Positions 11,197 to 37,908 of a DNA stretch of 64,000 nucleotides are shown here, piece after piece. Position numbers and translations under genes: made by a program. The notes under the pieces are model-generated. The model was not told where the DNA came from. It saw only the letters and a list, made by a program, of their open reading frames with translations, and did no database searches. How positions within the stretch are numbered: the stretch's first letter is position 1; the number at the start of each line of letters is the position of its first letter. Source of the stretch: Chrysomallon squamiferum (taxonomy: Eukaryota; Animalia; Mollusca); contig CM022670.1 in the NCBI GenBank assembly GCA_012295275.1, positions 39,494,001 through 39,558,000 of the forward strand, read 5' to 3'.

Positions 11197-14100
11197 TCAG
11201 GGTGTGGTGAAAGTTAACTTACTGGTCCATGGACCACGCCCAACTTTCGTTAACGCCTGCACCTGCGCTGCGTATTGCGTGCGACGTCGCAGTCCGACTA
11301 AAGTGAAGTTCTGCGATTCGGTTGCGAAATGCTGATACAGGTCTGGGTTCGACACGAGATAATAGAGTCCTTGGTACCGCCGTATTCTGCCATTCTGCTG
11401 TTCTTTTAATGGTGGTAACCATGACAACATGACCGACGAAGGCGACAACGCGCGAGCTGTGAAATTCTGAGGGTGACCTGTAGGCACTGTAATAAAAAAA
11501 AAATGTTTCATATCACAGACACTAATATTCGTGTTTGGGTGGAAAGGTAGTTTGAGATACTGGAAAAGAAATATATAATTTTTTTAATATTTCTTTTTTA
11601 AATTTTTATTTATTTATTTATACTATTTTAGTAAGAGTAATCTTGAATTTTTCGTTACTTTTGTGTCGAAAAATATTTTAATGATAAAGTTTTACGTCGA
11701 AATCTTGAATTTATTTAATTACCATTGCAAAACCCAGAGAGTTCAGGTTAATCGATCATTATTTTATTATTTATTTATGTTTGCTGTGAGTTGTTATACA
11801 ATTATAACTGGCATAGATGATTCTAGGTGTGGGCACGTGCAGAAAAAAAACAACAAAAAAAACGATCTAGATTATTCCAGCATTACATTTTTATTTAATA
11901 TATAATGACACTCGTTTCATCGTCAAAGTTACACCCACCTCAGTGATTGTATAACGTATTTCTTATATCCTTGCCTGGCCCAAGAAATGTTCACTTAGCA
12001 AAGTATATATATATAAAAAAAAAAAAAAAAAAAAAAAAAAAAAAAATACCTCCGTCAGGTATGTTAAAACGAACGATAGTCGGTTCACTTAATCCGTTTT
12101 GGTTCCTGGCTCTTACTTCAAACACGTACATCATGCCTCTGCCTGATAATAAATATAATTATTTTTTTCACTGTTGACTGAATAAAGTATGACGTAAATG
12201 TATTTAAATATTTTCAGTAAGTGAACTGGCATCCATTTCTAAATATTAGTAAGAAATATTTAAATAATTAAAAAATTAAACTTAAAATAAAAAAATAATA
12301 TATATATATATAATTACTCTGAAATTTATTTTTTATTTTATTTTATTTCATTTTATTTATTTATTTATTTATTATTATTATTATTATTATTATTATTATT
12401 ATTATTATTATTATTTTTTTTTTTTTTTTTGCATTTATATATATATAAAACTCGTTCATTGATAATTAAAAAACACGAGTAAATATATTAATATTAAAAC
12501 ATACGAAGACGTTCCATCATTTCGTTTCAGTTCTATTTCACATATTCACTCTTTACGAGAATTTCAATTTATGTATCAAAATCTCAGTTTATTTATCACC
12601 ACGACAACAATGAAAAACGGTAACGTACTCAAGTCTTCAGTTTCTAACGACGTTTGTTCTGCAGAGACTTCACTTTCAAACGAGCCTTCATCACTTGTCC
12701 ACCTCAAACTGTAGGACTGCAGGTCACCGTTGGGACGTTGTGGAGGTCGCCAGGATATACGTACACGGAAAGGAGCCCTCGAAATAGGATTCACTGCCAG
12801 CGTCTGAGGAGCTGAAGGAGTCAGAGTTCCAGCTGAACCTGAAAAAAACAAAGATACCTTAAACACAAATATAGATACCTTGATTTGTTTATGGTACCAT
12901 TTGTGTATGAAAGATCATTGACTCCCTATCTATGGTAAGGTTTATGTTTAAAAATCCAGTTCTGTCATTCGATTGAAATCCATGGAATAACACTAATAAG
13001 TTTTATCTGTTGTTTAATATTTGTAAAAAAATACCCTAATAATAATAATAATAATTAAAAATACATTTTGAGTTTGACATAAGTTAATATATATTCATTC
13101 AGCCAATCGTTCATTCATTTTAGTTCAGAAAAAAAAAAAAAAAAAAAAAAAAAAAAAAAATCCTACAAATAAATGAAACAGTCCAATAGATATGCATAAA
13201 GAAACAAATGAAATAACATGTTATGCTATAACAACATTCTTTATCATGGATGTTATAAGAATATTTAACTATTCAGGTAGTTCATATTTCATGAAACTGA
13301 GTACACGTTTTCGTCCAATGGAAATCTTGTTTTCGTACATCTGGACTACTGGATTAGTCGTTGATGTTCAGACAAGTGACTATAAATAGTACCTCGTGAC
13401 TGTTGTTCAGTTTTCCTCTGACCAGACGATGCAGATATTCTGACACAGTTGTCTGCTGCAGGCATTCCTTGTTCTGCCAGATCCTTGCACACAGGAAACA
13501 CTGGAGCTGCAAATATAAAATATCTCCATTCACATTACAAAATCAGCAACGCTGAAAATAATACTCGTGATGAAATACTGAGATAGCTGTATATTAAGAA
13601 GAAATTTTAAAAATACTGTTAGGTGTTTGGTAACGTTTCTCTCACATTCAATAATCATTCCATTGTACTCGCAGTTTAACCATTTTTCAGTGTGCAAACT
13701 ATTCAAAAATACATGATATTAATAATAAAAGAAAGAAGATCCAGTATGTTATACTATGAATGAAAAGTGCCTATTTTCAGTCAACAGATTTTGTTTTCTT
13801 CACAATAAAATTCATTACATCATGAATAATGTAGCCACCTCAGCCCAGTGATTGTGCACTGCTGTTCATGAGAAAGAGTGAAAAGAAAACAAACCTATTG
13901 CTCGATGACGTTTTGACAAGAGGGCGTCCTCTTTGCAGACTGAGTGCAAGTTGAAGCAGTCCGACTGGCAGATCTGTCGAGGACGTGGACGATTTCCGAT
14001 TGCAATGCATGGTGGGAATGAGTGGAAACAAATGGCGGCCATTAGAAAATTTTGGCATTTTGATGAAACGGTATTTTCAATGACTCTAACAGCTCCTGGA

Positions 14101-37908: not shown

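What the first reader, a model, noticed from the sequence alone, without database searches (positions are those of the whole stretch)
11197..37908. Secreted LAR-ectodomain/ROR-CRD chimera: a roughly 2,800-aa Ig14-FN3x12-Frizzled protein with no membrane anchor
Seen in sequence: the threaded exons give SP-FN3-FN3-Ig-Ig-(Thr linker)-Ig-FN3-Ig x11-FN3 x7-CRD-FN3-FN3-stop. The stop (TGA TGA) is followed about 35 nt later by AATAAA, and no transmembrane, PTP or kinase exon is visible. Established: LAR-family RPTPs carry only three Ig domains, are membrane-bound and bind proteoglycans and synaptic partners through Ig1-3. ROR-type CRDs normally sit in receptor tyrosine kinases involved in Wnt signalling. 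I know of no characterised protein that combines the two. Inference: an exon-shuffled extracellular scaffold or decoy that could tether Wnt-type ligands to proteoglycan matrix or compete with LAR/ROR receptors.
Basis: partly seen in the sequence, partly recalled or inferred. Interest (0 to 1): 0.9.

Follow-up and report, generated by a model that had tools for sequence, protein, structure and literature searches.

The report
Giant secreted receptor-mosaic protein of snails
A snail gene, shared with abalone, spells a protein of about 2,800 residues with no membrane anchor, stitched from the outer parts of two signalling receptors (LAR and ROR); it is likely secreted as a long matrix scaffold that would stick to sulfated sugar chains and might weakly hold Wnt signals.

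Summary
The minus strand carries 37 phase-compatible exons (37908 to 11197, 8,385 nt) giving 14 Ig, 12 FN3 and one Frizzled-type CRD, with no transmembrane, phosphatase or kinase part. A full-length abalone orthologue (Haliotis asinina XP_067679857, 2,914 aa, auto-named 'hemicentin-1-like') has the same domain order and ends at the same place, so this is most likely one conserved gene. Thirteen Ig domains sort with LAR Ig1/2/3 (four cassettes), the last nine FN3 follow LAR's order, and the CRD is ROR-type by sequence and fold. Only the first LAR Ig1 copy keeps the basic loop in all three species compared and is extremely basic. ROR-type CRDs lack the Wnt lipid groove, so a high-affinity Wnt decoy is unlikely. 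Abalone copies also carry a Robo Ig1. I found no description in print. Verdict: a real, apparently undescribed mosaic extracellular protein; function untested.

The parts
37836..37908 (-). Exon 1: ATG and predicted signal peptide
   Evidence: hydrophobic N-terminus; abalone orthologue has one too; SignalP not run
34912..35838 (-). Exons 2-3: two N-terminal FN3 domains
   Evidence: present in Gigantopelta, both Haliotis orthologues and the Haliotis paralogue
34178..34471 (-). Exon 4: LAR-type Ig1 of cassette A, with basic loop after the core Trp and net charge +16
   Evidence: model's best Foldseek match is fly Lar Ig1-2
32875..33560 (-). Exons 5-6: LAR-type Ig2 of cassette A (split exon pair)
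31810..31905 (-). Exon 7: Thr-rich linker
31259..31567 (-). Exon 8: C2-type Ig, not clearly LAR-derived; present in Gigantopelta, no match in abalone
30532..30858 (-). Exon 9: FN3
26992..30007 (-). Exons 10-14: cassette B, LAR-type Ig1-Ig2-Ig3-Ig3'
23461..26424 (-). Exons 15-19: cassette C, LAR-type Ig1-Ig2-Ig3-Ig3'; GC splice donor after exon 19
20326..22689 (-). Exons 20-23: cassette D, LAR-type Ig1-Ig2-Ig3
16446..20132 (-). Exons 24-29: four FN3 whose best matches follow LAR FN1-FN4 in order
15148..16149 (-). Exon 30: three further copies of the fourth FN3; two one-base frame breaks near 16050 and 15229
   Evidence: both flanking frames are conserved in abalone
14763..14811 (-). Exon 31: short linker
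13393..14485 (-). Exons 32-34: ROR-type Frizzled cysteine-rich domain, all 10 cysteines
   Evidence: abalone counterpart
12050..12838 (-). Exons 35-36: FN3 matching fly Lar FN5
11197..11486 (-). Exon 37: last FN3 (fly Lar FN6-like) and stop
   Evidence: abalone orthologues end at the same position
11157..11162 (-). AATAAA, first candidate poly(A) signal
   Evidence: common by chance in this AT-rich DNA

Best explanation
The locus encodes one 27-domain protein built from a duplicated LAR ectodomain plus a ROR-type cysteine-rich domain, with no membrane anchor; it is likely secreted as a long matrix scaffold whose very basic first Ig1 would bind sulfated glycans and whose CRD would give a weak, lipid-independent site for Wnt-type ligands. 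Shown: exon structure, domain order, lack of TM/PTP/kinase, orthologues in Gigantopelta and Haliotis, LAR and ROR affinity of the modules, the basic Ig1. Inferred history: a copy of LAR lost everything after its sixth FN3, multiplied its Ig1-3 cassette to four and its fourth FN3 to four, and took in the ROR CRD exons between FN4 and FN5 through phase-1 introns, before abalones and peltospirid snails split. Inferred action: a flexible rod of roughly 85-100 nm (scaled from 35-40 nm for the LAR ectodomain) anchored at its N-end to proteoglycans or mucus glycans, buffering or presenting ligands of guidance receptors at its far end.
For: Same domain order and same C-terminal end in H. asinina XP_067679857, 28-51% identity per collinear domain; 54-87% in Gigantopelta XP_041357784 over the first 1,500 residues. 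Best match in a 23-protein panel (4 LARs) was a LAR for 11 of 14 Ig and 10 of 12 FN3, and the run from cassette D to the end follows LAR's own order. Trees put 13 of 14 Ig with LAR Ig1, Ig2 or Ig3 (supports 91/51, 76/95, 91/85). CRD: human ROR2 E=1e-24 against MuSK 1e-4 and no Frizzled or sFRP at E<=5 (abalone CRD); model Z 16.3 to ROR2, 15.2-15.7 MuSK/Nrk, 11.2 best Frizzled. First Ig1 net charge +16, +17, +14 in the three species, the top 3 of 115 Ig domains examined, with the basic loop of LAR Ig1 kept; LAR Ig1's positive patch is the glycosaminoglycan site (PMC6078854). ROR2 CRD still pulls down WNT5A, more weakly than FZ CRDs (PMC11219042).
Against: No transcript, localisation or binding data were obtained. 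Two frame breaks precede the CRD in this assembly, and the H. rubra copy is annotated as three pieces, one ending in what looks like a shifted frame in the same exon. Tree supports are moderate, none of the three LAR groups is starred, IgD3 sits with neuroglian and PTK7 domains, and the FN3 tree is poorly resolved. ROR-type CRDs lack the Wnt lipid groove. A neighbouring abalone paralogue of 3,609 aa has no CRD at all, and the middle Ig content differs between lineages, which fits a plain structural role as well. No mollusc LAR was in the comparison set.
Confidence: 0.45

Rival explanations
1. Same secreted protein, but a structural or adhesive matrix or mucus component: the receptor-derived domains serve as stiff spacers and glycan-binding patches, and the CRD no longer deals with Wnt.
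For: Paralogue XP_067678964 with 9 Ig and about 27 FN3, no CRD, no TM; domain gain and loss between lineages; most Ig1 copies lost the basic loop; CRD has drifted to 39% from snail ROR.
Against: CRD with all 10 cysteines is kept at 43% between window and abalone, like the better conserved domains; abalone copies gained a Robo Ig1, a known ligand-binding module. In the scaly-foot snail hard-part proteome tables, all FN3 rows that I saw (places 1-49 of 61) belong to one protein whose FN3 positions do not fit this one, and 'frizzled' does not occur in the held, cut file.
Confidence: 0.3
2. The two breaks in exon 30 are real in this species, so it makes only a truncated Ig/FN3 protein of about 2,195 residues without the CRD, or a decaying pseudogene.
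Against: The only two lesions in 8,385 coding bases are one-base indels at short purine runs, with no nonsense codon and intact splice sites in the 7 exons downstream; downstream domains are 33-51% identical to abalone, no lower than upstream ones; H. asinina is intact.
Confidence: 0.12
3. The locus is two or three tandem genes, or has a membrane-anchored isoform with exons outside the window.
For: RefSeq splits H. rubra into three models and ends the Gigantopelta model after cassette D Ig1.
Against: One ATG-plus-hydrophobic leader only; no intron over 2 kb; all junctions in phase; single H. asinina model; the split models end in off-frame or intron-like tails; last exon stops right after the FN3 in three species; a convergent gene lies downstream.
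Confidence: 0.1

Closest known systems
LAR-family (type IIa) receptor tyrosine phosphatases: PTPRF/PTPRD/PTPRS, Drosophila Lar
   Same: Ig1, Ig2, Ig3 and FN1-FN6 modules in LAR's order at the C-terminal half; basic loop in one Ig1.
   Different: Four Ig cassettes instead of one, amplified fourth FN3, two extra N-terminal FN3, a CRD, and no TM or phosphatase domains (LAR architecture from PMC6078854).
ROR1/ROR2, MuSK and Drosophila Nrk receptor tyrosine kinases
   Same: ROR-type CRD by sequence and fold.
   Different: No kringle, TM or kinase; Ig domains are not ROR-type.
Secreted CRD proteins: sFRP, collagen XVIII Fz isoform, carboxypeptidase Z (listed in PMC6747125)
   Same: A CRD outside the cell without a signalling tail; collagen XVIII ties a CRD to matrix.
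   Different: The CRD here is ROR-type rather than Frizzled-type (sFRP3 Z 9.3 against ROR2 16.3) and sits in an Ig/FN3 rod.
Hemicentin (the automatic RefSeq name of the orthologues)
   Same: Large extracellular protein with many Ig domains.
   Different: No vWA, TSP1, G2F, EGF or fibulin domains in the orthologue's Pfam scan; the Ig domains are LAR-type. The name is a best-hit label.
Unnamed crinoid giant proteins XP_071952165 (Antedon) and XP_033111178 (Anneissia)
   Same: Ig, FN3 and ROR-type CRDs in a 2,000-3,000-aa chain; no TM-level hydropathy in the Antedon protein.
   Different: Three CRDs; six of seven Antedon Ig domains group with ROR Ig, none with LAR; the CRDs do not group with the snail CRD: likely independent origin.

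Membership tests
LAR-family RPTP | Ig1-Ig2-Ig3 followed by FN3 repeats homologous to LAR | tested here: met
   (moderate support; cassette present four times)
LAR-family RPTP | Exactly three Ig domains | tested here: not met
   14 Ig
LAR-family RPTP | Single TM helix and tandem D1/D2 phosphatase domains | tested here: not met
   abalone orthologue also lacks them
LAR-family RPTP | Glycosaminoglycan binding by Ig1 | not testable with these tools
   basic loop and +16 charge in the first Ig1 only; binding not measured
ROR/MuSK RTK | ROR-type CRD with 10 cysteines | tested here: met
ROR/MuSK RTK | Kringle, TM and tyrosine kinase domains | tested here: not met
   window; orthologue
sFRP-type Wnt decoy | Frizzled-type CRD (lipid groove) plus netrin-like domain | tested here: not met
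   CRD is ROR-type; no NTR domain in the orthologue's Pfam scan; the groove itself was not measured on the model
sFRP-type Wnt decoy | Binds Wnt | not testable with these tools
   no Wnt chain was available for a complex job
Hemicentin | vWA domain, long Ig run, G2F, EGF and fibulin C-terminal modules (recalled definition) | tested here: not met
   none of these non-Ig modules in Pfam scans

The most novel reading that the evidence does not exclude
Snails have built a secreted 'receptor-ectodomain platform': a LAR-derived rod that keeps capturing ligand-binding exons from other guidance receptors (ROR CRD in both lineages, Robo Ig1 in abalone) and holds Wnt, Slit and proteoglycans together in the matrix, shaping morphogen and axon-guidance gradients without signalling itself. 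Crinoids would have evolved a similar ROR-derived platform independently.
Probability: 0.22. Interest if true: 0.75.

Novelty: new variant of a known kind. Interest (0 to 1): 0.5.

Why it matters
It is a clear, exon-level record of how a transmembrane receptor can be turned into a giant extracellular protein and go on gaining modules from other receptors. It is hidden in databases under the wrong name 'hemicentin-1-like' and is often split by annotation, so abalone expression, GWAS and proteomic hits with that name may be misread. If the modules still bind their ligands, it would be a multi-pathway extracellular modulator of Wnt, Slit and proteoglycan signalling that can be tested in abalone larvae.

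Tried and rejected
No whole genome was held, so the true LAR and ROR genes of this animal could not be compared. Run search listed 4 RNA runs (one study) holding 0.14-0.18 of the words of 25000-34900 and one run of unknown kind at 0.37; wholly exonic words are 0.256 of that stretch, but the runs were never laid, so this is not used as evidence of expression. Word-indexed searches with the CRD exon (0 of 12 candidates) and the exon-30 piece (6 generic hits among 2,398) missed the abalone orthologue, and the representative search (55 hits) missed it too, probably because it sits in a cluster whose representative lacks the CRD; all three word searches were limited to 2,000 residues, so absence in other molluscs is not shown. 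Metagenome contigs: 277 pattern matches, none confirmed. ESM Atlas gave only generic FN3 clusters; the second query did not complete. Earlier findings: nothing. CRD tree has no Frizzled outgroup and is unresolved at its base. A missed Ig exon between exons 6 and 7 (Gigantopelta and abalone have an extra Ig there) was sought and not found; no further Ig, FN3 or CRD exon in six frames of the window. Hydrophobic stretches downstream of the stop are translations of T-rich simple sequence, not exons. A 10-base GT-AG 'intron' or an internal acceptor as a fix for the first break was considered and rejected (too short; the skipped part is conserved in abalone). No complex job was sent. Shell, sclerite and adhesion papers gave no link to this protein.

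Full report
Setting. The window is AT-rich (24-39% G+C per 2 kb), microsatellite-laden animal DNA. No whole genome is held. The closest protein relative is from the peltospirid vent snail Gigantopelta aegis (54-87% identity per collinear domain), so the source is likely a related snail; I did not establish the species.

Observation. On the minus strand I threaded 37 exons from ATG 37908 to the stop at 11199-11197, 8,385 nt in all. Every junction is in phase; 33 of 36 introns are phase 1; introns are 158-1,997 nt; one donor is GC. Pfam matched Ig, FN3 or Fz in 31 of 34 pieces given. Profiles built from the model give the order FFIIIFI(11)F(7)CFF: 14 Ig, 12 FN3, 1 CRD. The best 19-residue hydropathy is 1.69 in an Ig strand, against 2.35 and 2.49 for real TM helices. 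LAR TM/PTP and ROR kringle/TM/kinase queries find nothing in the window at E<=1. One thing was missed: exon 30 has two one-base frame breaks, near 16050 and 15229, at short purine runs; read straight it stops near residue 2,195. Both flanking frames are conserved in abalone, there is no nonsense codon elsewhere, and downstream domains are as conserved as upstream ones, so assembly error is the likelier cause (inference).

Relatives. A profile of the five Ig3-like copies gave 262 hits among 7,989 scored candidates, 120 listed; the top two were G. aegis XP_041357784 and Haliotis rubra XP_046551054. Their clusters hold H. asinina XP_067679857 (2,914 aa, 'hemicentin-1-like'), with order FFIIIFI(13)F(7)CFF, one Fz domain, no TM, and an end at the same position as the window protein. 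The G. aegis model stops after cassette D Ig1 with an intron-like tail. A paralogue, H. asinina XP_067678964 (3,609 aa; 9 Ig, about 27 FN3, no CRD, no TM), shares the N-terminal FN3-FN3-Ig1-Ig2 start and is listed with the same longest-contig length as the orthologue in both abalones. So this is most likely a small family of large anchor-less LAR derivatives, present in at least two gastropod lineages. Its wider range is unknown, because the word searches stop at 2,000 residues and see only cluster representatives.

Origin of the modules. Against a panel of 23 fetched proteins (4 LARs, none from a mollusc), the best match was a LAR for 11 of 14 Ig and 10 of 12 FN3 domains. Cassette D and the following FN3s match fly Lar Ig1, Ig2, Ig3, FN1-FN4 in order; the three FN3 of exon 30 match the same fourth FN3 (in vertebrates FN4 or FN5) and cluster with it as local duplicates (88); the two FN3 after the CRD match fly FN5 and FN6. 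In a quick tree of all 115 Ig domains the LAR Ig1, Ig2 and Ig3 groups have SH-aLRT 93, 91 and 95, with IgD3 outside. In a careful tree of 52 of them (orthologue, crinoid, Dscam, FGFR and insect neuroglian rows left out) 13 of 14 window Ig fall on the LAR Ig1, Ig2 or Ig3 sides (91/51, 76/95, 91/85; none starred; bootstrap not fully settled). The C2-type Ig of exon 8 is a long, unplaced branch. The model of the first Ig (pLDDT 91.8) has fly Lar Ig1-2 as best Foldseek match, only slightly ahead of obscurin-like and titin Ig; its alignment held LAR rows, so this is not independent. The CRD has all ten cysteines. Its middle exon matches human ROR2 best (E 3.8e-6); the joined domain matches Lymnaea ROR best (38.6%); the abalone CRD matches ROR2 at 1e-24, MuSK and Nrk at 1e-4, and no Frizzled, sFRP or Smoothened at E<=5. 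Its model (pLDDT 89.7; alignment rows were ROR-like hits) aligns with ROR2 at Z 16.3 over 131 residues, rmsd 2.3, and with the best Frizzled at Z 11.2 over 115, rmsd 3.2. The borders of exon 33 coincide with the apparent exon borders of ROR-like open frames from unnamed assemblies (P0003, P0075; inference from where likeness starts and ends), as expected for exon shuffling. Both abalone copies carry, where the window has cassette C Ig1-Ig2, an Ig that scores 88.5 bits on human ROBO2 Ig1 against 35 or less on its other Ig domains (H. rubra seen). Robo Ig1 is the Slit-binding domain (PMC10084454, passages). Shuffling has thus continued.

How it may work. LAR ectodomains are flexible beads-on-a-string of 35-40 nm and bind glycosaminoglycans through a positive patch on Ig1 (PMC6078854, passages). 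Twenty-seven domains would give about 85-100 nm (my scaling). Of the four Ig1 copies in the window, only the first has four basic residues in the ten after the core Trp, as LAR does (others 0, 1, 2); its net charge is +16, and +17 and +14 in Gigantopelta and abalone, the three highest of 115 Ig domains, while LAR's own Ig1 is near zero. A conserved polyanion-binding N-terminal anchor is the best-grounded functional inference. The abalone cassette D Ig1 also has four such residues, but net charge -4. For the CRD, the ROR2 structure lacks the lipid groove and binds WNT5A more weakly than FZ CRDs (PMC11219042, passages), and Nrk's CRD cannot take Wnt's acyl chain (10.1101/2021.04.29.442059, passages). 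A high-affinity Wnt trap is therefore unlikely; a weak site made useful by matrix tethering is possible. I commit to a glycan-anchored secreted scaffold that buffers or presents ligands (0.45), against a purely structural matrix or mucus protein (0.30), a truncated or decaying gene in this species (0.12) and split or membrane-bound forms (0.10).

Known systems and print. It fails membership of LAR RPTPs, ROR kinases, sFRPs and hemicentins, though it is built from the first two. Nine paper searches were run. Those aimed at the architecture or the gene gave 0 papers, 1 review, 4 papers, 3 listed, 9, 25, 20 listed and 7; from listings and abstract starts none describes this protein. Searches served the mechanism. 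I read passages of PMC6003135, PMC7333891, PMC11758661, PMC6747125 and PMC11871041 and searched one cut supplementary table of the last: the FN3 rows seen (49 of 61 places) belong to one sclerite protein whose FN3 positions do not fit; one of its supplements was too large to read. The library lacks most subscription papers, so 'undescribed' is provisional. Crinoids have unnamed 2,000-3,000-aa Ig/FN3/three-CRD proteins whose Ig are mostly ROR-type and whose CRDs do not group with the snail CRD, likely a parallel invention.

Verdict. Real, conserved and apparently undescribed: a new variant of exon-shuffled mosaic extracellular proteins. Function is untested. Interest 0.5.

Noticed in passing
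P0198 (H. asinina XP_067679857) residues 981-1082; same in P0077: Abalone orthologues carry a Robo Ig1-like domain (88.5 bits to ROBO2 Ig1) and two further non-LAR Ig domains that the window gene lacks.
   Followed up: partly
P0200 (H. asinina XP_067678964), P0094 and P0199 (H. rubra): Paralogue of 3,609 aa with LAR-type Ig at both ends and about 27 FN3, no CRD, no TM; same longest-contig length as the orthologue.
   Followed up: partly
P0006 (Antedon XP_071952165), P0002 (Anneissia XP_033111178): Crinoid giant proteins with ROR-type Ig, FN3 and three ROR-type CRDs; Antedon also has a weak vWA match and no TM-level hydropathy.
   Followed up: partly
P0079 (Scomber japonicus XP_053186731): A 599-aa fish model made of two tandem LAR Ig1-3 cassettes only; may be an assembly duplication or a parallel case.
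   Followed up: no
window 54993-63603, - strand: REXO1-like gene: EloA-BP1 (PF15870) at E 1.9e-18 and 8e-16 in two exons, plus a 634-aa open Ser/Lys-rich exon. The REXO1 name is recalled.
   Followed up: partly
window 172-5700, + strand: Convergent neighbour: short Cys-containing exons and a strongly hydrophobic TM-like stretch near 5550-5640; no convincing Pfam match.
   Followed up: partly
window 46828-47082 and 48380-48980, - strand: An exon with a weak Glyoxalase_2 match (E 0.001, below cut-off) and a 200-aa acidic, Cys-rich open frame.
   Followed up: no
window 11197-37908 against 39500-64000: CpG observed/expected is 1.09 in this gene and 0.37-0.39 in the right-hand genes, the pattern of unmethylated regulated genes beside methylated housekeeping genes in invertebrates (recalled).
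   Followed up: partly
window 37676-37850: A roughly 94-base tandem duplication repeats the exon-1 splice donor just inside intron 1.
   Followed up: no
window 24840-25280 and 8150-9300: A minisatellite inside intron 16 and a 1.1-kb GAA-type simple repeat downstream of the gene.
   Followed up: no
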